Positions 3,001 through 15,016 of a stretch of DNA of 15,016 nt are shown piece by piece. Below the pieces are notes generated by a model. That model did not search any database. It had not been told where the DNA came from and saw nothing but the letters and a program-made list of their open reading frames with translations. The position numbers were made by a program, and so were the translations under genes. The stretch's first letter is position 1; each line of letters begins with the position of its first letter. Source of the DNA: a virus (taxonomy: Duplodnaviria; Heunggongvirae; Uroviricota; Caudoviricetes); the IMG/VR virus record IMGVR_UViG_3300025066_000017; one strand, 5' to 3'.

Positions 3001-4047
3001 AAAAGGAGTGTTTGGAGTGGGTGCGGAGGGCTCGTTTGAGGTAGGCCCTTGTCCCTGAGACGCCTGTTGAATTCGATCTTGTACGTGTGGTGATAAACGA
3101 GGCACAGGAGAACCTTCTCTTGCTTCTCCTTTTACTCGACTTTGTTCTCCAAGAAGTTGTGCTTTTGGAACACCATACTCGTCGTTCATCTCGAGCAAAT
3201 GATGCATTATATCTTCATCTTCTCGAGATCTTCTTTCTGGATCTATTCCACCATCGAAACTGTCAATAAAGCTTACTTTGTGGTGATCTGGACTCTGCAC
3301 ACCCTCGTCCAAGCGAACTCTATAGTTTGCATGTGGATTTTTTGGTGTTCTAGGACCGAAGGGTGTTTGATTTACAAGAGATTCTTTAGCTCCGCGTGTC
3401 GCTTGTTCCTGTTGAGGAACTTGTTTATTTGTCGGCGGCGCAGGTGAGTGTACAACGGGTTCTTGATGCTGTTGTTGTTTGTGGGCTGGAGTATGTGGTG
3501 TCTGAATACCTTCGTGGGATAAAGAAGGAGCTACGTTGGGATCTTTGGAGTGACTGGTACCAAAATCTCCGAATGCAGTAGTCGAATCCTTGCCCGAAAA
3601 AGACCTATCTCTGAATACATCACCAAGACGTCCATGATAATCTCTGCTGACTCTTATATCGGTTGGTTCAAACTCAAAGGAATGTCGAGAATCACTTACT
3701 GGATGATCATGCGAATATATTCTGTATCGATCTCTGGGCTCTGTTTGTTCTTTTTCACTGTGTTGACGTTCTGAATCTAGAGAAGAAGATTCACTGTATG
3801 ATCCAAGACTAGATGCCCCCTCACTATATGGATTTGACAGCCGTTCGTTTTTCCCCTGGAGGCTGGGACTATGTGGTTCTGCAGAAGCTTCGGAACTTGG
3901 TGAGAATTCCGTTGGGGTGGGATCTGCGCCTCCTGATACTCCAAACGCAGCTTTGGCTAATTGATCTTGTGTTTCCCAAGGCAGTGGAGCAGTCCCTAGA
4001 GATTTCAGTGTTTCTTCATTATAGAGCTTAGTGGAGGCTTTACCCAT
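1..4047 (-). CDS. Giant low-complexity protein, N-terminal 1349 aa only (runs off the left edge); function unknown, possibly a virion-associated or polyvalent phage protein
   Basis: Manual translation of the reverse strand from ATG at 4047 (MGKASTKLYNEETLKSLGTAPLPWETQDQ...) to position 1 (...QQRQPASKNSPMTLSPR) found no stop in 1349 codons. An in-frame TGA lies upstream at 4066-4068. All internal repeats have lengths divisible by 3 (57 nt, 30 nt). Confidence 0.93.
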   Translation of the reverse strand, partial: MGKASTKLYNEETLKSLGTAPLPWETQDQLAKAAFGVSGGADPTPTEFSPSSEASAEPHSPSLQGKNERLSNPYSEGASSLGSYSESSSLDSERQHSEKEQTEPRDRYRIYSHDHPVSDSRHSFEFEPTDIRVSRDYHGRLGDVFRDRSFSGKDSTTAFGDFGTSHSKDPNVAPSLSHEGIQTPHTPAHKQQQHQEPVVHSPAPPTNKQVPQQEQATRGAKESLVNQTPFGPRTPKNPHANYRVRLDEGVQSPDHHKVSFIDSFDGGIDPERRSREDEDIMHHLLEMNDEYGVPKAQLLGEQSRVKGEAREGSPVPRLSPHVQDRIQQASQGQGPTSNEPSAPTPNTPFAPTPNTPRATPVAQHNDPFGGPVPSPDGLPREPATDVSTERQLIMDAGLEESRRRRSTEPLSRQTVPQPDPSNTPIENLAARQRDPIAAPSAPSPNPHEEWKRNREAQGTGPLQIRPGQSIQVPTPERLQQENPHTNLSPNLPNVPGDLSPYSSFIQNIPQQTQVNPEVPQQTQVNPGIPQYPKTDPGVSEETETNPGIPQQTQVNPGIPQPAPKQDPMVPIASKVLEGMFSGDSHFDRVHKNPELKARLDSLQSRFQQQMKRQEEAHGSNIPQEVQDRILLETYNAADEINRESYEQQSGGNPFAPVDSTQALSGQKQPQEQFEQVDPTQALPGQKQPQEQFEQVDPTQALPGQKQPQEQFEQRERAPGTLTRDNNSSAAGSAEQVNTNNDSPAVQARNERRRFRETTGYLDVLFDNEESFPHVYNNAEAREQIQGLKREWYRELNENMNPDPEIGLPIEKYKEITYRIHQQASEIERKASEGAQNAPGNPFAPVQESGFGGEQQPSQTREWKDNINEQLYSGTQDGTSLGEAPEPTLRDSNPPNNSVNTQAYQGSPIQSSESTQTNLGFAPTPFAPQTHPSTPFAPSTLSQTSDTQGGATSPGQAPPTAPQSILELSDDQRISDTQGGATSQRETNQNENSLQFQSMETGQRGSSEDTHLEPWESPFWNDVDSGASGTGSEEGTRSGHPSSQNPDALQFQSNEKTKTVSPKKIAEAQSAEFDPPGPEQRTDTYPGSPGSSSDNKTSEATLDQIIGEENIDSPGSSSFEEQTPAGKVNPQDLHSLWNDERNLRSLRQANPDAHRELMGLKQKFNESLRRLSQEHGGEAPDTAVQQLMKPMLKQAQNIYRQTYGDNAFQAGYGEDEQKQSPWGHIDLEGAADVLGEDYYLGEEVSPGTSGSPSSSEGPIENEGLHFPKVSNMPNVHEMREQGGFAGQPSLDLGKEDKDFLFDVAPALENLISSAQSPEEKKVFEEMQSRLSYIQQRQPASKNSPMTLSPR
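448..2322 (-). repeat. Three diverged copies of a ~69-aa helical module inside the giant ORF (2119-2322, 1561-1767, 448-654)
   Basis: Aligned by eye: LEGMFSGDSHFDRVHKNPELKARLDSLQSRFQQQMK...AADEINRE / LDVLFDNEESFPHVYNNAEAREQIQGLKREWYRELN...QASEIERK / LHSLWNDERNLRSLRQANPDAHRELMGLKQKFNESLR...QAQNIYRQ. Confidence 0.7.
1909..2079. repeat. Coding tandem repeat, 3 x 57 nt (19 aa VDPTQALPGQKQPQEQFEQ on the minus strand)
   Basis: Units 1909-1965 and 1966-2022 are identical; 2023-2079 has a few substitutions. Confidence 0.97.
2371..2520. repeat. Coding tandem repeat, 5 x 30 nt (10 aa, consensus QQTQVNPGIP)
   Basis: Minus-strand translation: QQTQVNPEVP QQTQVNPGIP QYPKTDPGVS EETETNPGIP QQTQVNPGIP. Confidence 0.9.
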
Positions 4048-4183: not shown

Positions 4184-4208
4184 AAAATCTTTAGACTCTA
4201 AAGATTTT
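4184..4208. promoter_or_regulatory. Dispersed palindrome copy 1: AAAATCTTTAGA-C-TCTAAAGATTTT
   Basis: Perfect 12-bp arms with a 1-nt centre. It lies in the divergent intergenic region, 19 nt upstream of the SET gene start. The regulatory role is inferred. Confidence 0.75.
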
Positions 4209-4227
4209 TATAAAAAAGGACTCATCC

Positions 4228-4620
4228 TTGCTTTTCATCTCGCATTATATAAAGCACTCTTCTGTCCATGGACTTGGTCTCTTTACATCCACACCCGTTA
4301 TCTGCGGAGAAGCGATATGGCAATTCTCATCAGAATCTTGTCTCATTATGACAAAGGATGAATGGTTAGGTCTCATTGCTTCTTTGGGAGAAGAAAACAC
4401 TGTAAAGATAAAGAAATGGACAGAAGTCGATGGCGAATTTTTTATAATGTATACGGATGGGTCACAATTTATAAACCACTCCGACAATCCAAATGTTAAA
4501 GATGAGGGAAATAAAATCATTGCCCTACGCGATATAAACACCCACGAAGAAATAACACTGGACTATAAAGTCGCCCTCGACCCCAGAGATCACGAATTCT
4601 TAAAAGAGTATCTGAAATGA
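4228..4620 (+). CDS. Stand-alone SET-domain protein (putative protein-lysine methyltransferase)
   Basis: SET motifs: S.VHGLGLFT near the N-terminus, FINHSDNPN (NHS motif), IALRDI...EEITLDY (ELxxDY). TTG start with AAGGA 7 nt upstream. No post-SET cysteines. Confidence 0.9.
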   Translation: MLFISHYIKHSSVHGLGLFTSTPVICGEAIWQFSSESCLIMTKDEWLGLIASLGEENTVKIKKWTEVDGEFFIMYTDGSQFINHSDNPNVKDEGNKIIALRDINTHEEITLDYKVALDPRDHEFLKEYLK

Positions 4621-5051
4621 TTGACCTCAATATCATATCACTCAAAGACCTAAGTAAATTAGTCTCGCGTGATTTGCTTGGGTATGAGGTCGACGACTCC
4701 TCTTTTGACCCTGCGATTAGAATTCCCGGAGAATGGGAAGGGAGAATCCATCAAGGATGGCATAGGATGCCTTATTGGGCCAGTGATGCTTCTGCATGGG
4801 AGGTTCTTATCTCAAAAATGGAAGGATTTAATTTCCTCTTTCATCTTTATCAAATAAATCATGAGAGAGGGAAATACATCGCCATCTTCCAGGATTCTGA
4901 AAAACAAAGAGAATTGAGTTTTGGTTTTGCATCTAAAATACCCCGCGCATCTTGCATCGCAGCACTCCGAGTACTGGAACTATTTATTATAGATTCTGTT
5001 GAAATGGATGACTTTGTGAAAATAAAAGAACATTTAATGTTTATACCCTAA
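4617..5051 (+). CDS. Phage ABA-sandwich-domain-like protein
   Basis: V..DLLGY, PYWASDASAWEVLISKM and ASKIPRASCIAALRVL match the recalled family pattern (P.YSTD..AAW.V.EK ... A.T.P.AIC.AAL). ATGA overlap with the SET stop codon. Confidence 0.65.
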   Translation: MIDLNIISLKDLSKLVSRDLLGYEVDDSSFDPAIRIPGEWEGRIHQGWHRMPYWASDASAWEVLISKMEGFNFLFHLYQINHERGKYIAIFQDSEKQRELSFGFASKIPRASCIAALRVLELFIIDSVEMDDFVKIKEHLMFIP

Positions 5052-5158
5052 TAATAAACAATTTATACTCAAGGAATATATCAATAAAAACATAGAAGAA
5101 TCGGGTGTTTTGCACATATTTCTAAATAGACAAAGTGGTCTTTTTTTTGCTATTTCTG

Positions 5159-5205
5159 AATAACAAGCAGAGACCTTATCAATACTATTGTCTTTGCTTG
5201 TTATT
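5159..5205. other. Intergenic inverted repeat / RNA hairpin (16-bp stem, 15-nt loop)
   Basis: AATAACAAGCAGAGAC (5159-5174) pairs with GTCTTTGCTTGTTATT (5190-5205) with one G-U pair. It ends 35 nt upstream of the ATG at 5241. Confidence 0.65.
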
Positions 5206-5240
5206 GATATAAATTATCTGTATTCTGTCGGAGAGAGACA

Positions 5241-5762
5241 ATGAAAACCCAAGTCTTATTTATGTCTTCATTCTTAAAGATCATCAACACATATAGCTGG
5301 CTCATTGGACCCCTTGCTACAGGTCTTTTTATTTGGTGGTCTAGACGATTTTACAAAAAGGTAACAGAGATGATCGCATCACCAGAAAAAGTCGAACAAC
5401 TTGAGAAAGAAGTCAAGAACCTTAGAGCTATCGTAGAAGGAGTCCAAGATGAAGATACAGGTGAGAGAAAAGATGGCCTAGTGGACCAAGTCGCAAAACA
5501 GAACGAAACACTCTCAGAAACTCTTCCTCATGGATTGAAAAAAATAGAAGAAACACAAGGTGAAATCAGAGCATCAGAGGAAAGACTGCGAGGAGACATT
5601 AAGGCATCCGAGCAGCGATCCGCCCGGAGTTTGAATGATACTCGGCTAGAACTCTCTCGCCTTGTTTCTCACGAAGTCGAAAGAACTCTTGATGCAAAAC
5701 TAGTTCCACTTGAGCAACGCCTCACTACCGTCATTCAAGAGACTGCAGAGCGACGAGAATAG
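5241..5762 (+). CDS. Hypothetical membrane-anchored coiled-coil protein
   Basis: GGAG RBS. One N-terminal hydrophobic segment (SWLIGPLATGLFIWW) followed by basic residues (RR..KK), then E/K/L/Q-rich heptad-like sequence. Confidence 0.8.
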   Translation: MKTQVLFMSSFLKIINTYSWLIGPLATGLFIWWSRRFYKKVTEMIASPEKVEQLEKEVKNLRAIVEGVQDEDTGERKDGLVDQVAKQNETLSETLPHGLKKIEETQGEIRASEERLRGDIKASEQRSARSLNDTRLELSRLVSHEVERTLDAKLVPLEQRLTTVIQETAERRE

Positions 5763-5789
5763 ATTCACTGTCATGTATATGGATTTCCC

Positions 5790-6197
5790 ATGCGCTTGCT
5801 TCTTGTTGATGATAATCCAATTGATAGAGAGATACTCGAGACTTTCATTCATGACTTTGATTCTTCTATTATTATCATGCACGCTGAGCACGGCGAGGAA
5901 GCAATTGCGCTGCTCCTGGAACTCCCCAGAAAAGACCTCCCCAATCTAATCCTTTTAGACTTGCATATGCCTATAATGGATGGTTTAGATTTTCTTGATG
6001 CAAAATCAAATCTAAACGATATCATCCAAGCAATCCCCACACTTGTTCTTGCAAACACCGGGATAGCACAAAATGTTTTGAGAAGCTATATAGCCGGTGC
6101 TAATGCATTCATTGAAAGACCCATTGCACCATCTCTATTTAGAAAAATAATAAAAAGTATCTTCGCATTTTGGAATGATGTTGCGCTTCTGCCCTAG
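5790..6197 (+). CDS. Single-domain response regulator, Rcp1-like receiver, with atypical switch residues
   Basis: LLLVDD, LILLDLHMP (D57), GANAFIERP and the C-terminal FW..V.LP typical of Rcp1-like receivers. Ala88 replaces the conserved Thr/Ser and Arg110 replaces the conserved Lys. Confidence 0.92.
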   Translation: MRLLLVDDNPIDREILETFIHDFDSSIIIMHAEHGEEAIALLLELPRKDLPNLILLDLHMPIMDGLDFLDAKSNLNDIIQAIPTLVLANTGIAQNVLRSYIAGANAFIERPIAPSLFRKIIKSIFAFWNDVALLP

Positions 6198-6204
6198 ACG
6201 AAAT

Positions 6205-7302
6205 TTAGACAATAGGGATCTTTACAAAGAAAGTAGATCCTTCATCATATGTAGAGATAAAATCTATACTCCCACCCAAAAGCTCTATTTTTTTTCTAGA
6301 GAGAGCCAGTCCCATCCCATCTCCGGGTATCGAAGATCTATGATGCAAGCGCTGTAGAATTTGAAAAACCTTCTCTTTGTCTTTCTCTCGCACTCCGATT
6401 CCATTGTCTGTAAAAGAAAGAATAACGAAGTTTCTTTCTTTTTTTATGTCTACAGAAACCACGAGCTTTCTATTAGGGCTTTGATATTTTTTTGCGTTAT
6501 CTAGAATATTACTGAAGACAGAGTATAGAATGCTTCTATTCGAATCCACTGACATCTTTCTACTAAAAGAAATAGATGCGCAGCACTTCATGTCTAAGTC
6601 TGTTATTGCATCCGCAATAATATCTCCCAAATCAACACTTTCTGATGTCTCTACACTGTCTAATAAATCTATACGAGAATAGGATACAAGAAAATCTAAC
6701 AATCCTGAAAGTCTCTCGGATGATGCTATTATTTTTTTATATATTTCTTGATCTTCCGGACTTTGTAGGGAAGATTCTAAGAAACCCAAGTATCCGCAAA
6801 TAGCTCGAAGAGGAGCACGCAAGTCATGGCTTATAGAATAAGCAAGCTGTTTCAAGTCGTCGCATTGTCGCTGTAGACGGTTATTGAGTTGATACTCTTT
6901 CGTTAAATCGTTATGAGCACCCAATATTCGTATAGGATTTCCGTCGTTATCTCGAACCACATAACCCCGACATCGAATATAAACAGTCCCACCGTCTGCG
7001 TGATGATATCGTACCACCTGTTGATAACAGGGACGATCAGGATTATTGATAGATTCTTGCATCAAAATATTAGCAGTTTCTAAGTCTTCTGCAAAAATTA
7101 GATCTTGCCACTCCGACGCCTTATGCTCTCTTGTATTGGGATCATATCCCAATGTTTTCCAGAACTCTGGACTCATCCATTCGTTTTCATTATCGGTGAG
7201 ATCCCAGTACCAGACACCATCCAGAGAACCCTCACAAAGAAAATCAAAAATTCTTTGATCTTCTTGAAGTTTCTGAATTAATTCTTGATGTAGATAATTC
7301 AT
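6205..7302 (-). CDS. Soluble PAS-domain sensor histidine kinase (PAS-HisKA-HATPase_c; H-box of the Cph1/bacteriophytochrome-kinase type)
   Basis: PAS: DGVWYWDL...WMSPEFWKTLGY...WQDLI...VVRYHHADG...RCRG..VRD.DG.P.RILGAH.D.T. H-box AYSISHDLRAPLRAI, N-box VFSNILDNAKKY, DNGIG, GDGMGLA, EGSTF. No transmembrane segment. Start placed at ATG 7302 (AGGT upstream); the ORF track extends to GTG 7377. Confidence 0.95.
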   Translation of the reverse strand: MNYLHQELIQKLQEDQRIFDFLCEGSLDGVWYWDLTDNENEWMSPEFWKTLGYDPNTREHKASEWQDLIFAEDLETANILMQESINNPDRPCYQQVVRYHHADGGTVYIRCRGYVVRDNDGNPIRILGAHNDLTKEYQLNNRLQRQCDDLKQLAYSISHDLRAPLRAICGYLGFLESSLQSPEDQEIYKKIIASSERLSGLLDFLVSYSRIDLLDSVETSESVDLGDIIADAITDLDMKCCASISFSRKMSVDSNRSILYSVFSNILDNAKKYQSPNRKLVVSVDIKKERNFVILSFTDNGIGVREKDKEKVFQILQRLHHRSSIPGDGMGLALSRKKIELLGGSIDFISTYDEGSTFFVKIPIV

Positions 7303-7361
7303 TTTTTTACCTGAGAGTTCAATAGTAACAATCATCAGAGTAGACGAATTCTGTTTCCTTC

Positions 7362-7808
7362 TCAAATTCGGCCACACATACTTGGAAGCCTTACTAGTTT
7401 AATCCAAAACTCTGAAAAAGTTTCTATTACCTCCATGAAATCAACAACAGAAACAGGTTTTCTTAAAAAAGCATTTGCATGTAATTTATAGCTTTTTATA
7501 ACATCTTCGTCCGCACTTGATGATGTTAGAACTATGATTGGGATCATTTTAAATTCTGGATCTTGCTTTACGATTTGAAGAAATTCAAAGCCATTCATTA
7601 TTGGCATATTGATATCGAGAAGAATTATATCAGGGAGGCAACTCTCTCCCTTTTTCTTCATTAGTATATCAATGCCTTCTTGTCCATCTCTCGCGATCAA
7701 TATGTTGTTTTTTATCTTTCTTTGAAAAGATGTCTCTATAAAGAAAACATCATCCTCATCATCATCTATGAGTAATATCTCTATTTCTTTGCTTGCTTCT
7801 TCTTGCAT
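7362..7808 (-). CDS. Single-domain response regulator, canonical Rcp1-like receiver
   Basis: ILLIDDD, IILLDINMP, IPIIVLTSS, ANAFLRKP and FW..LV.LP; all catalytic and switch residues are intact. Confidence 0.95.
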   Translation of the reverse strand: MQEEASKEIEILLIDDDEDDVFFIETSFQRKIKNNILIARDGQEGIDILMKKKGESCLPDIILLDINMPIMNGFEFLQIVKQDPEFKMIPIIVLTSSSADEDVIKSYKLHANAFLRKPVSVVDFMEVIETFSEFWIKLVRLPSMCGRI

Positions 7809-7877
7809 TCTTTTCTTCTTATCTCTGTCTCGTCTCTTTTTCTATATTAGAAACAAGAATTAAGGGGTTTATAAGTC

Positions 7878-8249
7878 ATGGAAACGAGTCGTGTCATTAC
7901 TGTGCGATCTAAGCTAAATCGTCCCATCGATGTATTAATAGTTCTAGATAGTCTCCGAAAAAGCAAGGAACCTGTACATAGATCTCAAATATTGGATCAG
8001 GTTACAGAGAGTGCTTTTTATTATTCTTTTTACTCCGGGTATGTTTCGTATAAACACGAAGAAAACAAAAAGGGCATCCTTCTTCTCATTTCCCCCAAAG
8101 ACCCTATTGTCGGTTTTGTAAATCAAGGATGGTTTGCGCTTCTAGAATATAAATCGCTAACTGCCCAATGTCCCGACATCGAGAAGATAGAAGAACATTT
8201 TGGAATACCCACAGGTGGCATAAAATCTTTAGAGTCTAAAGATTGCTAG
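7878..8249 (+). CDS. Hypothetical protein
   Basis: 123-aa ATG ORF, AAGGGG upstream, fills the gap between flanking genes; no recognisable motif. Confidence 0.65.
   Translation: METSRVITVRSKLNRPIDVLIVLDSLRKSKEPVHRSQILDQVTESAFYYSFYSGYVSYKHEENKKGILLLISPKDPIVGFVNQGWFALLEYKSLTAQCPDIEKIEEHFGIPTGGIKSLESKDC
8224..8244. promoter_or_regulatory. Dispersed palindrome copy 2: AATCTTTAGA-G-TCTAAAGATT
   Basis: Perfect 10-bp arms. Overlaps the last codons of 7878-8249 and ends 15 nt before GTG 8260. Confidence 0.75.
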
Positions 8250-8259
8250 GAGTCGAATT

Positions 8260-8532
8260 GTGCGCTTATTAAGCAAAAAAGAATCAAGAGCAGAAAGAAT
8301 ATTTTTGGATCTAGTAGGACAATGTATTTGGGAGACAATCGGATCAAGCCGAATAAGGTCTCTATATGACTCATATGCCAAACAATGTCTGGCTTTGGGA
8401 AAAGAAATTCCAGATAAATATTTGCCTGGAAGACTAATTCTACGCCTGTCTTCCAATGATAGATTGGCTCTACAAAGTCTAAGATCATCACACATACAGC
8501 ATCGAGATGCTCGTTACTGGGGGAAACTATAA
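8260..8532 (+). CDS. Hypothetical protein
   Basis: GTG start with AGGAG 7 nt upstream; its stop overlaps the next start (TAATG). Confidence 0.7.
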   Translation: MRLLSKKESRAERIFLDLVGQCIWETIGSSRIRSLYDSYAKQCLALGKEIPDKYLPGRLILRLSSNDRLALQSLRSSHIQHRDARYWGKL

Positions 8533-9371
8533 TGGGAAAACGATTCGAACAATGTCCCGAATGCAATAAGAAAGGTTTATATGTATCCAATGGCTATCCC
8601 TACTTTGGGGATGGAAGTAAGACTTGTCGATATTGTCAACATATAATTCTATCATCCGAACATCTTGCTAAGAAAGAACAGCAGCGCATCGACAGAGAGA
8701 AGGCGATGGCTTGGCTTAAACAAAAAGAACGCAACTTTGAAGCCCTCGAGAAAGCACTACACCCCGAACGAGAAACATTCTCCAACCTAAGAGAAACACA
8801 TCCCCACTTCTTCCCCAATAACCCAAAAACTTGTTTTGAATCCATCGATAAATTTCCTGTCGCAAGATATGCAATCGATGTCTCATGGGAATATTTGAGA
8901 CAGTCCATCCAAACATTAACAGGAGATGGATGGTTCCCACTTGAAATGAACCCTCCCTATCAGCGCGGCTATGTTTGGACGGTAGAGCAAAAGATTGCTT
9001 TTGTTGAGTTTCAATTGCGGGATGGTGTCGGCGGCGACCAAATTTATTGGAACTGCAGGGACTGGGACAAAAGGGGTCAAGAAGGGACAAGTAGCCCTCT
9101 GGAGATTGTTGATGGGAAACAGAGACTCATGGCTGTGCTAGACTTTTTAGATGGCCATATTCCTGCTTTTGGCTCCTACTTCAGTGAGTATGAGGGACGT
9201 TTGGGAATGATTACCCCAAAGTTTAGAATGAATGTAAACAACCTCGAAACAGAGCTAGAAGTTGTGCAATGGTATCTCGCGATGAACACGGGCGGAAGCA
9301 TACACACTGCCAAGGATCTTGCACCCGCGCTCGAATTACTGCAAAGTCTACAAAACGGGGAATTCTTTTAG
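8532..9371 (+). CDS. Zn-ribbon plus DUF262 (ParB/sulfiredoxin-like, GmrS-type) domain protein
   Basis: N-terminal CPEC...CRYC. DUF262 motifs NPPYQRGYVW, IVDGKQRL and MNTGGSIHT. No HNH/DUF1524 nuclease domain is seen. Confidence 0.85.
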   Translation: MGKRFEQCPECNKKGLYVSNGYPYFGDGSKTCRYCQHIILSSEHLAKKEQQRIDREKAMAWLKQKERNFEALEKALHPERETFSNLRETHPHFFPNNPKTCFESIDKFPVARYAIDVSWEYLRQSIQTLTGDGWFPLEMNPPYQRGYVWTVEQKIAFVEFQLRDGVGGDQIYWNCRDWDKRGQEGTSSPLEIVDGKQRLMAVLDFLDGHIPAFGSYFSEYEGRLGMITPKFRMNVNNLETELEVVQWYLAMNTGGSIHTAKDLAPALELLQSLQNGEFF

Positions 9372-9426
9372 AAGCATAGATAGCTTCTATTTGCAATAAT
9401 TGCAGTAACTCTTTGGTATTGGTGAT

Positions 9427-9861
9427 ATGAGTATGATTTTGCGAGATATTCCATTCTATCTTCCTTTCCATTCCGAAGAAATAGAAGAAGTCCACCCAGA
9501 GTATGAGTGGAGGCTTCTCAATGAACCGCAAACAGAAATTTTCACAGGACAATTCCTTGTGATGTTTCATGCGGAAATTGCGGCCACAAGTAAGAAAACC
9601 CTCATAGAAGTAGCGCTGGCAACAAACATAGAAAACATAATAGAAGGCTCCGCAAGAAGATGGATGTCCACACTTAGAGGTGAACCAGACCATGGCGTAT
9701 TTCAAACAATAGTTCTCATGACATCCGTAGAACTCGACTCCCAACCCATCTGCGCTACTATGCGACACCTCGAATATCATAACGAACCAAGCCCTATATA
9801 TTTCGGCAGAAGATCCATTCTCGTCATTCCTCTCGTGGATTACACGATGGAACCAATGTAG
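9427..9861 (+). CDS. Hypothetical protein
   Basis: 144-aa ATG ORF, GGTG upstream, co-directional with its neighbours; no recognisable motif. Confidence 0.7.
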   Translation: MSMILRDIPFYLPFHSEEIEEVHPEYEWRLLNEPQTEIFTGQFLVMFHAEIAATSKKTLIEVALATNIENIIEGSARRWMSTLRGEPDHGVFQTIVLMTSVELDSQPICATMRHLEYHNEPSPIYFGRRSILVIPLVDYTMEPM

Positions 9862-9886
9862 AAAATCTTTAGAATCTAAAGATTTT
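9862..9886. promoter_or_regulatory. Dispersed palindrome copy 3: AAAATCTTTAGA-A-TCTAAAGATTTT
   Basis: Perfect 12-bp arms, starting immediately after the TAG stop at 9859-9861 and heading an AT-rich intergenic region. Confidence 0.75.
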
Positions 9887-10046
9887 TCAATCGAAAACTC
9901 ATATCATTTATATATCCATTCTCTATTGTAAAAATATGATTCCTGTTTTTACGTAAATGCTTTCGTTCCTTTCTTAGCGAATTCGTTACTAGGACAAGTG
10001 AACTTATGTCCTCTTGCGCCCTCTCTTTAATAAAAAAGGAAGAACC

Positions 10047-10520
10047 ATGGAAGACACCTTCACAAGCACCGAATCAGAAGCAATGCTTCTCAAAATCCCT
10101 TTTCTTTCCGAAAAGATCTTTGTTACAGAAGTCATCAAAGCGGCCAAAAAACTTGGAAACGCTATCATCGACGAAGGACTCATTCTCTTCTTTATTCGAC
10201 CACAAATACCAAGACCCGACACTCACATCGGACTCTACGGATCCAAGGATCTTGCACTCGACCAATACGAAACCTTCACCCGAAAAAGCAAACAAAACAT
10301 CTTGTCCGTAGCCATCGTTTCTAAAGCCCCCGAACAAATATCGGAAAATACATTTCATATTTGGATTCAACTCGGCAACACACGAAAAGAATTCATCGTC
10401 TACCGCGAAAAATCCATAAACGACCAAGATGAAGAACAACCCGAATTGTCATTTTCAATCGGCGAAGTGAGCAAAGGCCACGAAACCAACCCCCCTGCTC
10501 CTCTACACAGATACCTCTAA
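10047..10520 (+). CDS. Hypothetical protein
   Basis: ATG at 10047 preceded by AAAAAGGAAGAACC, in frame with track ORF 10014-10520. Confidence 0.75.
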   Translation: MEDTFTSTESEAMLLKIPFLSEKIFVTEVIKAAKKLGNAIIDEGLILFFIRPQIPRPDTHIGLYGSKDLALDQYETFTRKSKQNILSVAIVSKAPEQISENTFHIWIQLGNTRKEFIVYREKSINDQDEEQPELSFSIGEVSKGHETNPPAPLHRYL

Positions 10521-10563
10521 ATTTATCCCCATAAAAAAAACCACATAACTAGAGGATATCTTC

Positions 10564-11202
10564 GTGCGCAAAGACTCAACCACACAATACAGACACGTTC
10601 ACAATAATCTCTATGGACAAACCGGCAAAACCAGAATCCCATCCCATTTCATAACTGCATGGGGAGAAACAAAAACCTTTCAAGAATGGATCGAAGATCC
10701 AAGATGCAAACCAGACAAAATATCACTTCTATACGATCGAATAATAAACCGAAATGTCTCACCCGAAGAAGCAATATCAACTCCTCCCGACACAACAAGA
10801 TCTCCTTTGATTTTTAGCTTGTGGGGAGAAACCAAAACTATCCGCGAATGGTCCGAAGACCTAAGATGTCTTGTTAAATACTCGTGTCTGTACTCAAGAA
10901 TTGCCATAGGCAAGTGGGATTTTGAAACCGCGATTACCACCCCTGTTGGAGCAAGACGAAAGAAAAAGAAAGTCAGAAGATATCGAGAAATAAAGCGCAA
11001 AACATTATTTTCTCTATGGGGTGAAACAAAAATGATAAGCGAGTGGGCTCGTGACTCCCGATGCCTTGTGACTGTCAAAACTATACGCAGACGCCTGCGA
11101 CTTGGGTGGCCTCTCATCTTTGCCACCACAACACCTCCTCATCACTCCATCACTACAGAACTTCCGCATCCTATCAATCATTGGCCTGACACAGAGACTT
11201 AA
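10564..11202 (+). CDS. Putative DNA-binding protein with three tandem WGETK..EW..D.RC modules (resembling the C-terminal DNA-binding region of phage HNH endonucleases)
   Basis: TAWGETKTFQEWIEDPRC...ISTP, SLWGETKTIREWSEDLRC...ITTP and SLWGETKMISEWARDSRC...GW...TTTP. GTG start with AGAGGA RBS. No HNH catalytic motif is seen. Confidence 0.75.
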   Translation: MRKDSTTQYRHVHNNLYGQTGKTRIPSHFITAWGETKTFQEWIEDPRCKPDKISLLYDRIINRNVSPEEAISTPPDTTRSPLIFSLWGETKTIREWSEDLRCLVKYSCLYSRIAIGKWDFETAITTPVGARRKKKKVRRYREIKRKTLFSLWGETKMISEWARDSRCLVTVKTIRRRLRLGWPLIFATTTPPHHSITTELPHPINHWPDTET

Positions 11203-11238
11203 GGCATTGACCAACTAAACACTAAGAGGAATATCTAG

Positions 11239-12141
11239 ATGAAAAAGAAACGAATCTTTTTAACCAAAAAGTTTCTGGAGAAAAAAGGAATACAACCTCT
11301 TACCATTACCAGAATATTCCAAGCCGCAGGCAAAGAAGAACAAGAAAGATTCCGACTACCCAACACACCTGAAGAATGGTTGGCATACCTCAAAGCTGCA
11401 GCCTCCCTCGGACGACCGCGGCTTTGTTCTGTGTTTAAAAAACTGGAAATCCCGGTCGATCTATCGGGGATTCTTTTTTATGAAGAACTCAATAAAGATG
11501 ACCCCGAAATCCAAGCCTTCGATGGTGCCATTCTCGATAACGCATCATTCTGGAGAATGAACCTCACACACCGCTCATTCCTGGGTTGCAAGGGGAAAGG
11601 AACAAACTTCACAGAGGCCAACCTGAGCCACGGGAATATGAGTGATTCGGTCTTCGAGGAAGCCGACTTCTTAATGACCCAAATGGTCGACATTCATCTA
11701 AACCACTGTAGGTTCATCGCATGTAACTTTATGGAGGCGCGACTTGAAGAAGCGCTTGTCTATGGTTCTTCTTTCCCCAAGTCGTATATGTTCCGAACAG
11801 ACTTCCGCTACGCCCTTCTTCAAAAAACATCCTTTCAAACAAGTCTGTCTCTTTCCGAAGCCATCTTCGGTCAAGCCAATCTAAAAGAAACAGGACTGCT
11901 TGTTGCCTGCATCTCTGGGCGAGCCGTTCTCTGTACGCCAGACAGACTTCACATCGGATGCAACTCCGAAAAGCATGAGTACTGGCAATCTCTAACCCCA
12001 GAAGAAGTCGAAGACTATTACTCACATCTCGGTGGACACCAACTATGGCCTCACCGAGAACTCTTCTATCAAATCATGGAATACTGTCGAAATATCGGAT
12101 GGCCCGAACCCATGATGAAGAAAAAGGAAGAAACCACATGA
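11239..12141 (+). CDS. Pentapeptide-repeat protein (phage type, with a C-terminal IGC-containing domain)
   Basis: About 20 or more 5-residue units (AILDN ASFWR MNLTH ... TNFTE ANLSH ... ADFLM ... TDFRY ... ANLKE), C-terminal DRLHIGC...EYW; AGAGGA RBS. Confidence 0.88.
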   Translation: MKKKRIFLTKKFLEKKGIQPLTITRIFQAAGKEEQERFRLPNTPEEWLAYLKAAASLGRPRLCSVFKKLEIPVDLSGILFYEELNKDDPEIQAFDGAILDNASFWRMNLTHRSFLGCKGKGTNFTEANLSHGNMSDSVFEEADFLMTQMVDIHLNHCRFIACNFMEARLEEALVYGSSFPKSYMFRTDFRYALLQKTSFQTSLSLSEAIFGQANLKETGLLVACISGRAVLCTPDRLHIGCNSEKHEYWQSLTPEEVEDYYSHLGGHQLWPHRELFYQIMEYCRNIGWPEPMMKKKEETT

Positions 12142-12557
12142 CAACGGAATGGAAAGACACAGAATACCCCCACGTATGGGGAGTCGCAACACTCACAATC
12201 GCAGGAGCAAAGCGCATCGGATACCCAGAACTCACAGGCTCCCCGGTCATCTTTGCTAGAATTATAGAAAGTATTGAAACATACGAAGATGGGACAACCA
12301 GGACCCACTACTCCATCCATAATATCGTTGGAGAGTCCGGAGAAACACTCGCCCGTAATCTCAGTATCGATGTTCCCGAAGACTATGAGCTACTCCCAAG
12401 AGGATACTTTTCCTGCCTCACACCCATCTACATCTTTTGGGACTTCATCAACGAGAAAAAAGGATGTGCCCCCTTTACTCCTCCCCCCTCTTGGAACATC
12501 ACCCCCAACACCCCACCTTTCGATGAATACATAAAAATGACCCCACGCTTCTCCTAA
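12138..12557 (+). CDS. Hypothetical protein
   Basis: ATG 12138 overlaps the previous stop (ATGA), AAGGA RBS, in frame with track ORF 12045-12557. Confidence 0.75.
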   Translation: MTTEWKDTEYPHVWGVATLTIAGAKRIGYPELTGSPVIFARIIESIETYEDGTTRTHYSIHNIVGESGETLARNLSIDVPEDYELLPRGYFSCLTPIYIFWDFINEKKGCAPFTPPPSWNITPNTPPFDEYIKMTPRFS

Positions 12558-12592
12558 TCTCTCGACAATATACTGGAGCCACCACAATACCA

Positions 12593-13261
12593 ATGAAACC
12601 ACTCGACTTCTTCCACGACTTCGAACTCCCCGGCGAATGGGGAGATCCCCAATACCAAAACAACGTACACCGAAAGTGCGGCACCTGCTCCCTCTGCTGC
12701 CACCATCCATCCATCAAAGAAAATATAGTATGCGACACCATCCAAAATGCCCCCAACCTCTCTGATACCAAGAAAGAAGAAATTACATCCCAACTCTTCC
12801 CCTCCAACCAAGTTGACGATTTCGTAAAACCACCCTTCTCCCCATGCCCACACTTCTCCGGTGACCACTCCTCCTGCGAAGGATGCACTGTCTACGAAAA
12901 TAGACCACAATCCTGCTCCACATACCTGTGTGGATGGCTCCTCTTCCCCAGCGTTTTTCGCAAATCTTCTTCTCGACCCGATAAAACAAAATTTCTCACA
13001 TCCATCGGATTCCTCGAACTAGCACAAGAAAATAGCACAGAAATATTCAGACTCATGTGCATCGAAATACATACAGAAGACACACAACACCTACAAACAA
13101 GACAAGCCCAAAAAACCATTCAACGACTCATTAAGAAATTCAACTACCCCATCGTCATATACACACCACAACATGACACCATCCCCCAATTCTTTCTCAA
13201 CGCCGATACTCATCTCTCCGAAATTCTCACCACCCACGGCTCACAAGCATTCCCACAGTAA
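12593..13261 (+). CDS. YkgJ-like cysteine-cluster (CxxCxxCC) protein, putative Zn or Fe-S binding
   Basis: CGTCSLCC, then KP...CPH...GCTVYENRPQSCSTYLCGWL...RPD. Confidence 0.85.
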   Translation: MKPLDFFHDFELPGEWGDPQYQNNVHRKCGTCSLCCHHPSIKENIVCDTIQNAPNLSDTKKEEITSQLFPSNQVDDFVKPPFSPCPHFSGDHSSCEGCTVYENRPQSCSTYLCGWLLFPSVFRKSSSRPDKTKFLTSIGFLELAQENSTEIFRLMCIEIHTEDTQHLQTRQAQKTIQRLIKKFNYPIVIYTPQHDTIPQFFLNADTHLSEILTTHGSQAFPQ

Positions 13262-13280
13262 TCTTTAGACTCTAAAGATT
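13260..13280. promoter_or_regulatory. Dispersed palindrome copy 4: AATCTTTAGA-C-TCTAAAGATT
   Basis: Perfect 10-bp arms. Overlaps the TAA stop (13259-13261) and ends 22 nt before ATG 13303. Confidence 0.75.
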
Positions 13281-13302
13281 TATAACATAGCAAAACAGGA
13301 CA

Positions 13303-14133
13303 ATGGCCATGACACTCACCAGAAGAGACAATCAATATATCCTCGACATCTCTAAGGGACTCTCCCCACCCTACTCATATAACCCATTCGAAATACCCCA
13401 AGACCACATCATCAACGAAAAAACAGGAACCACTTTCGCCTACAAATTCTTTGCACCATCCCATCTTCGCAGTGACACATTTCAATCTTCTCTTCTATCC
13501 GCTCCTCCCAACGTCCACAGTGATACCGATGAATCAAACGAATCTCTCCAGTATCTATACTCCACCCTCTCTCGATATTCCCTGCAGTCCTACTCCACCA
13601 CATACAGCCTTAGTCAACCGACCGTCGCCACCGACAAGCCCCCCTTATTCGCCTTCACTACCCCCATCGCTGCCGCCTACTCCTTCCCCCCAACCACCCT
13701 CTATCGAGATAAATCAATCCACTCCTGGACACACACAAAACAACTCTGGAAAGTCCAAGTCAAACTCTCCCAACTCCTCCCCACCGCTACCGCAGTCAAT
13801 GCCTACGTAAGCGACCTCGACGCATTCTGGTCTGCTCTACATGCCATCTTTAATGAACCTCCATACGCAGAGAAATACATTCGTCCATCTCAATCGACAC
13901 GTCTATCTAAAACAGATGTAGAAAATCCCCTAGACCTTTTCCCCATCATTACATCTCAGGAAGGCATCGCACTCCTCGACCTCCAACGAAATAGAGCATC
14001 CCAATTCAATCAAACACCCTACACCATATCCCCACTACCCGGCACTCTCTTTTGCCACTCCGTCGAACTCATCGAACCTCTACACAACCCATATCACCCC
14101 GACTCAAATAACCCCACACTATCCCCCCAGTGA
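13303..14133 (+). CDS. Hypothetical protein, paralog 1 of a tandem pair
   Basis: AGGA RBS. Shares YNP...IP..HII...G...AYK, PPLFAFTTPIAA, KQLW.V..KLS.LLPTA, PGT.FC and HNPYHP with the downstream gene. Confidence 0.82.
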   Translation: MAMTLTRRDNQYILDISKGLSPPYSYNPFEIPQDHIINEKTGTTFAYKFFAPSHLRSDTFQSSLLSAPPNVHSDTDESNESLQYLYSTLSRYSLQSYSTTYSLSQPTVATDKPPLFAFTTPIAAAYSFPPTTLYRDKSIHSWTHTKQLWKVQVKLSQLLPTATAVNAYVSDLDAFWSALHAIFNEPPYAEKYIRPSQSTRLSKTDVENPLDLFPIITSQEGIALLDLQRNRASQFNQTPYTISPLPGTLFCHSVELIEPLHNPYHPDSNNPTLSPQ

Positions 14134-14947
14134 GAACCATCATGACAAAACATGAAAGCAAAAATAGGGATCTTCACAAGTTCCTCTTCCTCTTCCAGTT
14201 CCCATTCTCCCAAAAGAACCCATACAATCCACAGCCCTACTATATTCCTGAACATCACATCATTGATCCACAAGAAGGCATCATCTACGCCTACAAACTA
14301 CTCCATACACGTTACCCAGAAACTCAAAACAAAACATTCACATCATCCCATGTCGAAAACGAAAAACGATTGGGACGACAACTCTCCAGCTACTATGATA
14401 CATTTTCTGGTACCAGAAGCCCCATCTTATCCTTTCCCATATCCTACCAAGCAATGTACTCACCCAATACAAAAACCACCCCACCCCACACCAACGCCCC
14501 CCCCTCTTTGCCTTCACCACACCTATAGCCGCTGGAGTCTTTTCACCCCCTACTGCTGTAGTCTTTTCTGAACCTTTCTGCGGCAATCTCTTTTCTTGGT
14601 CTATATACAAACAACTATGGCTCGTAAAAGCTAAACTTTCATCGCTCCTACCCACCGCCGCATCCATATATATATCTTCAGAGAAGATACGAAAGTTCTG
14701 GAACAGAGTCACTACCGAAGGAGCCTACCCAAGCTTTAAGGCAAACTCCGGAAACTTACCACCTATATCCATCATACCCACCACCTACCTCGAAGCCACT
14801 ACGACCCCTCCCGGCACTATCTTCTGCGACGAAATTACACCCATCTGCCCCATACACAACCCCTACCATCCACAATCCCTCTTTCCCACCATACCCGAAC
14901 AAACACATCCCGAACGCATCATCGAAACAATGTCCATCCCCATCTAA
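14130..14947 (+). pseudogene. Paralog 2, split by a single-base frameshift at or near the C8 tract 14497-14504 (phase-variable gene, pseudogene or sequencing error)
   Basis: The first frame (start GTG 14130 or ATG 14142) matches paralog 1 up to about SYQAMYS...NAPP. The matching C-terminal half (PPLFAFTTPIAAG...KQLWLVKAKLSSLLPTA...PPGTIFC...HNPYHP) continues in the -1 frame to TAA 14945-14947. One extra C would join them. Confidence 0.85.
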
Positions 14948-14949
14948 AC

Positions 14950-15016
14950 CCCCCAAGACCCCATCCCAAGACCCCATCCCAATACCCCATCCCAAGACCC
15001 CATCCCAAGACCCCAT
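14950..15016. repeat. 13-nt tandem repeat CCCCATCCCAAGA, at least 4 full units plus partials, running off the window
   Basis: Units 14959-14971, 14972-14984 (AATA variant), 14985-14997, 14998-15010, partial 15011-15016; begins just after the paralog 2 stop. Confidence 0.95.

What the first reader, a model, noticed from the sequence alone, without database searches (positions are those of the whole stretch)
4184..13280. Four perfect copies of a 21-25 bp palindrome AATCTTTAGA-N-TCTAAAGATT at gene junctions
Seen: copies at 4184-4208, 8224-8244, 9862-9886 and 13260-13280, with invariant arms and a variable centre (C, G, A, C). Three end 15-22 nt upstream of a start codon, just before the RBS; three abut or overlap a stop codon. 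Invariant arms with a free centre are what a dimeric DNA-binding protein site or a hairpin would show. Hypotheses (inference): (a) operator of an element-wide regulon; (b) parS-like loading site, noting that the ParB-fold DUF262 gene lies just downstream of copy 2; (c) stem-loop boundaries for gene-module shuffling, as with promoter stem-loops in T4-like phage variable regions; (d) hairpin promoter or RNA-processing site. The AU-rich stem makes a classical intrinsic terminator less likely.
Basis: partly seen in the sequence, partly recalled or inferred. Interest (0 to 1): 0.8.

Follow-up and report, generated by a model that had tools for sequence, protein, structure and literature searches.

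The report
Genome-wide dyad site of jumbo phage
The four palindromes belong to about 75 almost identical, evenly spaced 21-25 bp sites at the gene boundaries of a roughly 244-kb uncultured marine phage, and their pattern of variation suggests a DNA site read by a two-part phage protein (possibly its ParB/KorB-like protein), not a plain RNA hairpin.

Summary
In detail: four exact copies of AATCTTTAGA-N-TCTAAAGATT, against 0.01 expected.

The window's contig overlaps the end of a 161-kb IMG/VR contig (549 nt, 99.8%). The two are probably pieces of one ~244-kb phage genome. The 161-kb piece holds 53 more copies, and the motif is no host repeat.

- **Placement:** copies sit in tandem, convergent and divergent junctions alike (23-35%). 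They are far more evenly spaced than chance, with no gap over 5.7 kb.
- **No attached signal:** nothing is conserved beyond 12 bases either side of the centre.
- **Sister lineage:** it keeps sites at the same junctions, but every copy reads AA[C/G]TTTAGA-S-TCTAAA[C/G]TT. The two C/G positions pair in only 15 of 27 copies.
- **Strains:** arms differ at 1/300 positions, flanks at 95/1200.

This fits a sequence-specific reader of two independent half-sites in duplex DNA. Both lineages encode an orphan ParB/Noc-like protein next to an HTH protein. The core matches the KorB operator at 11/13 positions.

Binding is untested, and RNA stem-loop punctuation remains the main rival. This scan already reported the motif on the adjacent window of this genome (e1-1848342) and read it as RNA punctuation.

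The parts
4184..4208 (.). Copy 1: a 25-bp perfect palindrome, AAAATCTTTAGA-C-TCTAAAGATTTT. It lies in the divergent spacer between the giant acidic gene (start 4047, minus strand) and the SET-domain gene (TTG 4228).
   Evidence: The database's precomputed gene calls show the two genes are divergent.
8224..8244 (.). Copy 2: a 21-bp palindrome with centre G. ORF 7878-8249 reads through it in the only stop-free frame (..SLESKD C*). It lies 15 nt before GTG 8260.
9862..9886 (.). Copy 3: a 25-bp perfect palindrome with centre A. It abuts the TAG stop at 9859-9861, and about 160 nt of spacer separate it from the next start (10047).
13260..13280 (.). Copy 4: a 21-bp palindrome with centre C. It overlaps the TAA stop of 12593-13261 and lies 22 nt before ATG 13303.

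Best explanation
Each copy is one of about 75 instances of a two-fold symmetric recognition site, consensus AAA-TCTTTAGA-S-TCTAAAGA-TTT, in a ~244-kb uncultured marine jumbo myovirus. The sites are seeded every ~3 kb, almost always in the short spacers between genes.

The most likely mechanism is that the site is read in duplex DNA by a dimeric, phage-encoded DNA-binding protein, with each half read separately.

The leading candidate reader is the genome's orphan ParB/Noc/KorB-type protein (ParB_N + HTH_ParB, no ParA found), or the HTH protein encoded beside it. Relatives of that family nucleate on short palindromes scattered over a replicon, close into CTP clamps and slide to neighbouring DNA. 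They silence promoters (KorB) or organise DNA (Noc, ParB).

On this reading the sites act as genome-wide operators, insulators or clamp-loading sites at transcription-unit boundaries. As a side effect they serve as points of homologous exchange between strains.

Shown: the copies, their placement, even spacing, half-site independence, concerted change between lineages, and the presence of the candidate genes.

For: 1. **Phage-private and genome-wide.** There are 50-53 copies on the 161-kb contig G001. Across 185,579 species genomes there are only 6 single chance hits.

2. **Same genome as the window.** The last 549 nt of the window's contig match G001 160897-160349 at 99.8%. G001 is rated 68% complete, and both pieces occur in the same samples.

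3. **No orientation rule.** Sites occupy 23% of tandem, 24% of convergent and 35% of divergent junctions. Two divergent cases are confirmed by the database's precomputed gene calls. In 66 oriented copies nothing is conserved beyond 12 bases either side of the centre, and the centre base shows no strand bias.

4. **Even spacing.** The coefficient of variation is 0.50, against 0.90-0.97 under two null models. The largest gap is 5.7 kb against ~13 kb expected. None of 5000 simulations reached the observed values.

5. **Sequence, not structure, is conserved.** Between strains the arms differ at 1/300 positions, flanks at 95/1200 and the centre at 3/15.

6. **Concerted change at orthologous junctions.** The sister lineage has sites at five shared junctions: after the terminase large subunit (TerL) stop, in the RusA-like gene tail, upstream of the G001|127 ortholog, between the SOD-protein and portal genes, and upstream of the HTH gene. 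All its copies read AA[C/G]TTTAGA-S-TCTAAA[C/G]TT.

7. **Independent half-sites.** The two S positions are complementary in 15 of 27 copies, about what independence predicts. As RNA, mismatched copies fold at a mean of -2.3 kcal/mol against -7.3 for paired ones. The position is still restricted to C or G. In the window's own genome the outer R/Y positions are nearly independent too, and hybrid half-site copies exist.

8. **Candidate reader.** Protein P0002 matches ParB_N + HTH_ParB. Its best solved relatives are Noc and ParB (E 6e-8), and the GxxR and ENLQRxDL motifs are kept. No ParA was found. A homolog, P0008 (33% identity, E 9e-37), lies on a sister-lineage contig with 5 copies. In both lineages it sits in a conserved module with an HTH_23 protein that has a site upstream.

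9. **Operator resemblance.** The core TTTAGA-S-TCTAAA matches the KorB operator TTTAGC-S-GCTAAA at 11 of 13 positions with the same odd spacing (PMC11790492). KorB loads there and slides up to 1.5 kb to silence promoters.
Against: - No binding data exist.
- In the window's own lineage the arms never vary. The half-site argument therefore rests on the sister lineage and on the outer positions.
- Many copies abut a stop codon even where the downstream spacer is long, for example 2/258, 17/595 and 1/179 nt. The A-run and T-run flanks also resemble a bidirectional terminator.
- ParB homologs are common in phages. Co-occurrence in two related lineages is weak evidence, because related phages share many genes.
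- The closest other ParB homolog's contig (L146, 35% identity) has no recurrent palindrome.
- P0002's Pfam scores lie just under the curated cut-offs.
- The KorB resemblance was recalled and then checked against only one paper. It could be chance.
- The join between the two contigs lies in a repeat array.
Confidence: 0.5

Rival explanations
1. RNA stem-loop punctuation. Transcribed copies fold into an AU-rich hairpin that ends, attenuates, stabilises or marks processing of transcripts in either direction. This was the earlier follow-up's reading (e1-1848342). The conserved sequence would then reflect an RNA-binding protein or nuclease that reads the hairpin.
For: - The element is a perfect palindrome that folds at about -7 kcal/mol at 37 C and -14 at 4 C.
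- Many copies abut the upstream stop even when the next start is far away (window copy 3).
- The A-run/T-run flanks resemble bidirectional terminators.
- Two copies have stems extended to 22-23 bp by unique complementary flanks (G001 10040 and 66825).
- No conventional terminators appear above chance in the window.
- The genome encodes a NYN-domain protein, a possible RNase.
Against: - In the sister lineage about 40% of copies carry a G.G or C.C mismatch in the stem. This drops the folding energy to about -2 kcal/mol, yet that position stays restricted to C/G and all other positions stay invariant.
- Beyond the outermost conserved pairs there is no significant covariation.
- Single-arm changes are not compensated.
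- Copies sit in 35% of divergent junctions, where no transcript ends.
- A structure-only signal would not stay identical between strains whose flanks differ at about 8% of positions, nor change in concert across all copies.
Confidence: 0.3
2. A recombination or mobility element with no trans-acting reader. The copies would be short repeats spread and homogenised by recombination (PeSL-like module shuffling, or a REP/MITE-like element), and their main effect would be to swap gene modules.
For: - One strain pair is 95-97% identical up to a copy and unrelated immediately beyond it (G001 54312 against L047).
- Other strain indels lie 8-70 nt from copies.
- Two centre-base differences between strains are complement flips, as hairpin-mediated inversion would give.
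Against: - Sites are kept at orthologous junctions across lineages whose terminase is only 56% identical. This argues for old, maintained positions, not recent insertion.
- Homogenisation would also fix the C/G positions, which stay polymorphic within one genome.
- No RAYT/Y1 transposase was found in 161 kb.
- No promoter is attached, unlike in PeSLs.
- The spacing is even, not clustered in variable regions.
- The one deletion examined closely used other direct repeats.
Confidence: 0.08
3. A binding site for a host protein, such as a global regulator or nucleoid protein, that the phage exploits. The unknown host would carry the same operator.
For: The core TTTAGA-S-TCTAAA is shared by two phage lineages that differ in the outer positions. 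That could reflect a common host factor.
Against: - The 21-mer is found only once each in six unrelated species genomes. In five of those six genomes checked, the 15-bp core with one mismatch is at or near the level of the reversed-pattern control.
- The lineage-specific switch in the outer positions fits a co-evolving phage reader better.
- The host itself is unknown, so this is weakly tested.
Confidence: 0.07
4. A hairpin-form promoter for a phage RNA polymerase, as with N4 vRNAP, or another phage-specific promoter.
For: Three of the four window copies lie 15-22 nt upstream of a start codon.
Against: - The element is fully symmetric with no strand bias.
- It occurs between convergent genes and directly after stop codons.
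- There is no conserved start region at a fixed distance.
- No T7/N4-type RNA polymerase or sigma region 2 was detected in 161 kb, although the RNA polymerase search had no positive control.
- 15-22 nt leaves room only for the ribosome-binding site.
Confidence: 0.03

Closest known systems
KorB operators (OB) of IncP plasmid RK2, and ParB/Noc sites (parS, NBS) in general
   Same: All are short palindromes dispersed over a replicon, many in promoter or intergenic regions.
   Different: This is a ~244-kb tailed-phage genome with about 75 sites, one every ~3 kb. No ParA or KorA-like partner has been identified. The conserved element is 21-25 bp, longer than the 13-16 bp of OB, parS or NBS. Binding is untested.
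Stoperators of Cluster A mycobacteriophages (L5 gp71 repressor sites)
   Same: Dozens of near-identical repressor sites are spread through a phage genome, mostly outside promoters. Their consensus co-varies with the repressor between lineages (PMC6550527). That parallels the TC-type to AS-type switch seen here.
   Different: Stoperators are asymmetric 13-bp sites bound by a monomer and oriented with transcription. Here the site is a symmetric dyad with no orientation. Those phages are temperate; the lifestyle here is unknown.
PeSL (promoter-early stem-loop) cassettes of T4-type phages
   Same: Both are repeated intergenic elements with a stem-loop that mark points of exchange between otherwise unrelated sequences (PMC4122927). 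One such breakpoint was seen here.
   Different: PeSLs are composite terminator/promoter units concentrated in hyperplastic regions. Here there is no attached promoter signal. Copies are evenly spread through replication, packaging and structural operons, and half the sister-lineage copies would not fold well.
Intrinsic (bidirectional) terminators and REP elements
   Same: These are also palindromes after gene ends, with an A-run before and a T-run after. REPs are likewise extragenic and highly repeated.
   Different: The stem here is AU-rich, and the T-run is part of the stem. The sequence is invariant, not merely the structure. Copies occur in divergent junctions, and no RAYT gene was found.

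Membership tests
ParB/KorB/Noc binding site (parS / OB / NBS type) | A short two-fold symmetric DNA site whose halves are read separately by a dimer | tested here: met
   The site is a perfect dyad. In the sister lineage the two C/G positions pair in only 15 of 27 copies, and hybrid half-site copies exist.
ParB/KorB/Noc binding site (parS / OB / NBS type) | A ParB_N + HTH_ParB protein encoded by the same replicon | tested here: met
   P0002 lies at G001 92532-93884. Its best solved relatives are Noc and ParB (E 6e-8 to 2e-4), and the GxxR and ENLQRxDL motifs are kept. G001 overlaps the window's contig end at 99.8% over 549 nt. The sister lineage has homolog P0008. Caveats: the Pfam scores lie just below the curated cut-offs, and the join lies in a repeat array.
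ParB/KorB/Noc binding site (parS / OB / NBS type) | Specific binding of the protein to the site, with CTP-dependent loading | not testable with these tools
   No protein-DNA modelling or experiment was available.
ParB/KorB/Noc binding site (parS / OB / NBS type) | A partner ParA ATPase (for a partition system proper) | tested here: not met
   PF13614 finds nothing in the 161 kb of G001, and the control rang in 14 of 14 genomes. The protein would be an orphan, like Noc. The remaining ~84 kb was only partly seen.
PeSL cassette (T4-type phages) | A stem-loop joined to a conserved early promoter at fixed spacing | tested here: not met
   In 66 oriented copies there is no information content beyond 12 bases either side of the centre. 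The window has no sigma-70-like excess.
PeSL cassette (T4-type phages) | Copies concentrated in hyperplastic regions, flanking small variable ORFs | tested here: not met
   Spacing is even over 161 kb, including the replication, terminase, portal and structural operons.
PeSL cassette (T4-type phages) | Recombination breakpoints at the element | tested here: inconclusive
   Among the few strain rearrangements seen, one is a clean case. The others lie 8-70 nt away or are unrelated.
Intrinsic terminator | A stable stem kept by compensatory change, followed by an unpaired U-run, placed at 3' ends only | tested here: not met
   Half-sites vary without compensation. The T-run pairs with the A-run. 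Copies occupy 35% of divergent junctions.
Stoperator (Cluster A mycobacteriophages) | [quoted passage not shown] | tested here: not met
   The element is symmetric, and the centre base shows no strand bias relative to gene direction.
REP / RAYT system | A cognate Y1 (RAYT) transposase in the genome | tested here: not met
   PF01797 finds nothing in G001, and the control rang in 6 genomes.

The most novel reading that the evidence does not exclude
A jumbo phage has seeded its whole ~244-kb chromosome with about 75 evenly spaced loading sites for an orphan ParB/Noc/KorB-type CTP clamp, with no gap above ~6 kb. The clamp could then cover or silence the entire genome from gene-boundary sites, giving phage-wide control of transcription, DNA organisation or protection. 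Sites and reader specificity would co-evolve between lineages.
Probability: 0.25. Interest if true: 0.85.

Novelty: new variant of a known kind. Interest (0 to 1): 0.6.

Why it matters
Dispersed, sequence-identical palindromes keep turning up in large phage genomes and are usually filed as terminator hairpins or PeSL-like cassettes. Here a sister lineage supplies a natural mutagenesis experiment. All copies changed together, and the two halves vary independently, which is what a DNA site read by a dimer predicts and what an RNA stem does not.

It would also offer a defined 25-bp site and two candidate proteins for a simple binding test.

The same sites mark at least one strain-level recombination junction, so they may also shape how such phages exchange genes.

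Tried and rejected
- **Known RNA families:** no Rfam family matches the window.
- **Literature:** the core sequence appears in no paper of the library.
- **Host repeat:** rejected. There are six single hits in 185,579 species genomes. In five of those six genomes checked, the 15-bp core with one mismatch is at or near the level of the reversed-pattern control.
- **DUF262 protein as reader:** rejected. Its relatives' contigs carry no motif.
- **Three-repeat HTH-like protein (10564-11202):** it has a homolog in G001, but tandem repeats do not suit a dyad, so it was not pursued.
- **GANTC methylation link:** GANTC is neither avoided nor enriched, 794 observed against 745 expected.
- **Isolated half-sites:** no excess, 8 found against ~6.6 expected.
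- **Stem extension by covarying flanks:** only weak, limited to the first two outer pairs.
- **Cultured relatives:** none. The terminase is at most 30% identical to any cultured phage's.
- **ParB relatives in IMG/VR:** only generic ParBs, with no recurrent palindromes. The closest homolog's contig, L146, has none.
- **Walking into the 121-kb JGI contig of another strain:** failed. The exact-protein look-ups did not reach it, and its record is not held.
- **Close strains of the window region:** 99.98% identical with the same gene content, so they could not test shuffling.
- **Other families in G001:** RAYT, ParA and sigma region 2 were not found. The T7-type RNA polymerase search also found nothing, but it had no positive control.

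Full report
**Observation.** The pattern AATCTTTAGANTCTAAAGATT occurs exactly four times in the window, at 4186, 8224, 9864 and 13260, with no mismatch. Shuffles expect 0.01. Copies 1 and 3 are 25-bp perfect palindromes.

Copy 1 lies in a divergent spacer, between the giant minus-strand gene starting at 4047 and the SET gene at 4228. Copies 2-4 lie in tandem junctions. Copies 2, 3 and 4 touch a stop codon. Copies 1, 2 and 4 end 15-22 nt before a start. Alignment of the four loci shows nothing conserved outside the palindrome.

**Where the motif occurs.** No whole genome is held for the window. Exact scans found only six single hits among 185,579 species genomes. In five of those six genomes checked, the 15-bp core with one mismatch is at or near the level of the reversed-pattern control. 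So this is not a host repeat.

In viral and metagenome collections the motif piles up on one 161,002-bp contig (G001, IMGVR_UViG_3300025133_000029) and on a few smaller marine contigs. G001 holds 50 copies within two mismatches of the 21-mer, against none for the reversed pattern. It holds 53 copies within one mismatch of the 17-bp core.

**One genome in two pieces.** The window shares no DNA with G001 except the motif. But the last 549 nt of the window's own contig (an ENA contig of ~84 kb, locus L143) match G001 160897-160349 at 99.8%. Both contigs end in a GCTAGCCCCC-type repeat array, and both occur in the same samples. G001 is rated 68% complete, and 161 + 84 kb is about 244 kb.

I therefore treat them as two pieces of one jumbo-phage genome, with the caveat that the join lies in repeats. 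Contig G002 is the same phage's head module: the tail of the giant gene, the SOD-domain protein, and the portal gene with inteins. That agrees with earlier notes on this genome.

The phage has no close cultured relative. Its terminase large subunit (TerL) is at most 30% identical to any cultured phage's. G001 also carries a DnaB-like helicase, a PolA-type polymerase and a UvsX-like recombinase, and at least 10 tRNA genes.

**Placement.** I made my own codon-usage gene calls on G001. These are approximate, especially for start codons. Of the 53 copies, 46 lie in junctions. The other 7 lie inside ORFs, always in the one frame that has no stop, and mostly within 55-180 nt of the ORF's end.

Sites occupy 23% of tandem, 24% of convergent and 35% of divergent junctions. 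The database's precomputed gene calls confirm two divergent cases: window copy 1 and the spacer between the HTH and ParB genes.

In short spacers the site sits between the stop and the ribosome-binding site. In long spacers it may hug the stop, hug the start or sit in the middle.

Spacing is much more even than chance. The coefficient of variation is 0.50, against 0.97 for random positions and 0.90 for random junctions. The largest gap is 5.7 kb against ~13 kb expected. None of 5000 simulations matched either value. The window's own copies follow the same rhythm, with gaps of 4.0, 1.6, 3.4 and 4.3 kb.

In 66 copies oriented by gene direction, nothing is conserved beyond 12 bases either side of the centre. 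The centre base shows no strand preference. So no promoter or other asymmetric signal is attached.

**Structure or sequence?** Beyond the invariant core, covariation is weak. Only the first two outer pairs exceed shuffles, and the rest is an A-rich left flank and a T-rich right flank.

Between strains of the same phage, the 20 arm positions differ at 1/300. The 40-nt flanks on each side differ at 95/1200, and the centre differs at 3/15. Two of the three centre differences are complement flips. This points to strong constraint on the sequence itself.

**The sister lineage.** This is the most informative comparison. A sister lineage is represented by contigs G004-G007 and L243/L244. Its terminase is 56% identical to G001's. 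It has sites at the same junctions:

- directly after the terminase stop;
- in the tail of the RusA-like gene upstream of the terminase;
- upstream of the ortholog of G001 gene 127;
- between the SOD-protein and portal genes;
- upstream of an HTH gene.

These are shown. Other positions differ, so there is turnover as well.

All its copies have changed together to AA[C/G]TTTAGA-S-TCTAAA[C/G]TT. The position that reads C/G is restricted to those two bases. Yet the left and right occurrences are complementary in only 15 of 27 unique copies, about what independence predicts. As RNA, the mismatched copies fold at a mean of -2.3 kcal/mol, against -7.3 for the paired ones.

In the window's own lineage there are also hybrid copies, with one half of each type (G002 19322 and 22639). 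One copy in G001 is fully of the sister type (48891).

A signal that works by folding should show compensatory change. A signal homogenised by recombination should not keep a free C/G position. A dimer reading two half-sites in duplex DNA, indifferent to C against G at one position, explains both observations.

**Candidate readers.** G001 encodes a 450-aa protein, P0002, matching ParB_N and HTH_ParB. Its best solved relatives are Noc and chromosomal ParBs, and the GxxR and ENLQRxDL motifs are retained. It has 3933 homologs at E <= 0.001. No ParA-type ATPase is found in the 161 kb.

P0002 lies divergent to a 236-aa HTH_23-type protein, with a site in the 319-nt spacer between them. The sister-lineage contig L243 carries homologs of both proteins and of two small neighbours, again with a site just upstream of the HTH gene.

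The core TTTAGA-S-TCTAAA differs from the KorB operator TTTAGC-S-GCTAAA only at the two symmetric positions next to the centre. KorB is a ParB-family CTP clamp that loads at its operators and slides up to 1.5 kb to silence promoters. Noc nucleates at sites scattered over the chromosome and spreads.

These are leads, not proof. ParB genes are common in phages. The nearest other homolog's contig has no such palindrome. Generic ParB-bearing viral contigs have none either.

The DUF262 protein next to copy 2 is not a good candidate. Contigs with its relatives carry no motif.

**Recombination.** Close strains of the window region are 99.98% identical, so they are uninformative. Strain variants of G001 show one clean case. 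Identity of 95-97% runs up to the copy at G001 54312, and unrelated sequence starts immediately beyond it. Other indels lie 8-70 nt from copies, and one of them used a different direct repeat. The sites can therefore be exchange points, as PeSLs are. But they lack the attached promoter and the clustering that define PeSLs.

I rate a duplex-DNA site for a dimeric phage protein at about 0.5. The ParB/KorB/Noc-like protein, or its HTH neighbour, is the leading candidate reader. RNA stem-loop punctuation is at about 0.3, and the other readings are lower.

This scan had already reported the motif on the adjacent window of the same genome (e1-1848342) and read it as RNA punctuation. The sister-lineage comparison and the genome join are what move my reading towards DNA.

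Nothing here shows binding.

Noticed in passing
Right of the window: L143 17867-18415 (window coordinates about 19100-19650) and G001 160349-160897: The window's ~84-kb contig and the 161-kb IMG/VR contig overlap by 549 nt at 99.8%. Both end in a 10/30/40-nt GCTAGCCCCC-type repeat array with dispersed ~70-200-nt repeats. Several assemblies break at this spot. It is probably a single ~244-kb genome split by the assemblers.
   Followed up: partly
window 10564-11202 (+): The protein has three tandem ~55-aa repeats (..WGETKTxxEWxxDxRC..). It matches only the C-terminal, non-catalytic part of PHROG 'HNH endonuclease' families, and has no Pfam hit. Among the 19 window ORFs compared, it is the only one with a homolog in the 161-kb piece (G001 118.8-119.65 kb).
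   Followed up: partly
window 12500-15016: The GC skew is extreme (-0.5 to -0.57, plus strand C-rich and A-rich). Automatic gene calls in different assemblies disagree there on which strand codes.
   Followed up: no
window 5790-7808: A complete two-component set sits among the phage genes: a PAS histidine kinase plus two receiver-only proteins. A SET-domain gene (4228-4620) and pentapeptide-repeat genes lie nearby.
   Followed up: no
G001 33-2489 (L082): An array of at least 10 tRNA genes sits at the contig's left end. A copy of the palindrome starts 3 nt after the last one, tRNA-Leu.
   Followed up: no
G001 83739-85157 (-): This is a ParB_N domain fused to an N6/N4 DNA methyltransferase, with a copy of the palindrome inside its last 60 nt. 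The same genome also has a Dam-type methylase. The palindrome's centre is a GANTC site, but GANTC is not enriched or avoided overall.
   Followed up: partly
G001 155441 and 155889: Two copies share identical 15-nt flanks on both sides but have complementary centre bases (C and G). Together with the centre flips between strains, this suggests occasional inversion of the palindrome's centre.
   Followed up: no
G001 105083-105195: One full site is flanked within 45 nt on each side by a degenerate copy or half-site, all inside one 190-nt spacer. This is the only such cluster seen.
   Followed up: no
G001 small proteins: The phage encodes homologs of translation initiation factor IF3, chaperonin Cpn10, HU, a NYN-domain protein, RadC, ThiF and DnaJ. 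The DnaB-like and UvsX-like genes look interrupted by intein or HNH inserts.
   Followed up: no
Giant gene, about 5.7 kb left of the window (L154 4089; L149 5551): One copy of the palindrome lies inside the ~3300-aa acidic giant gene, in the stop-free frame.
   Followed up: no
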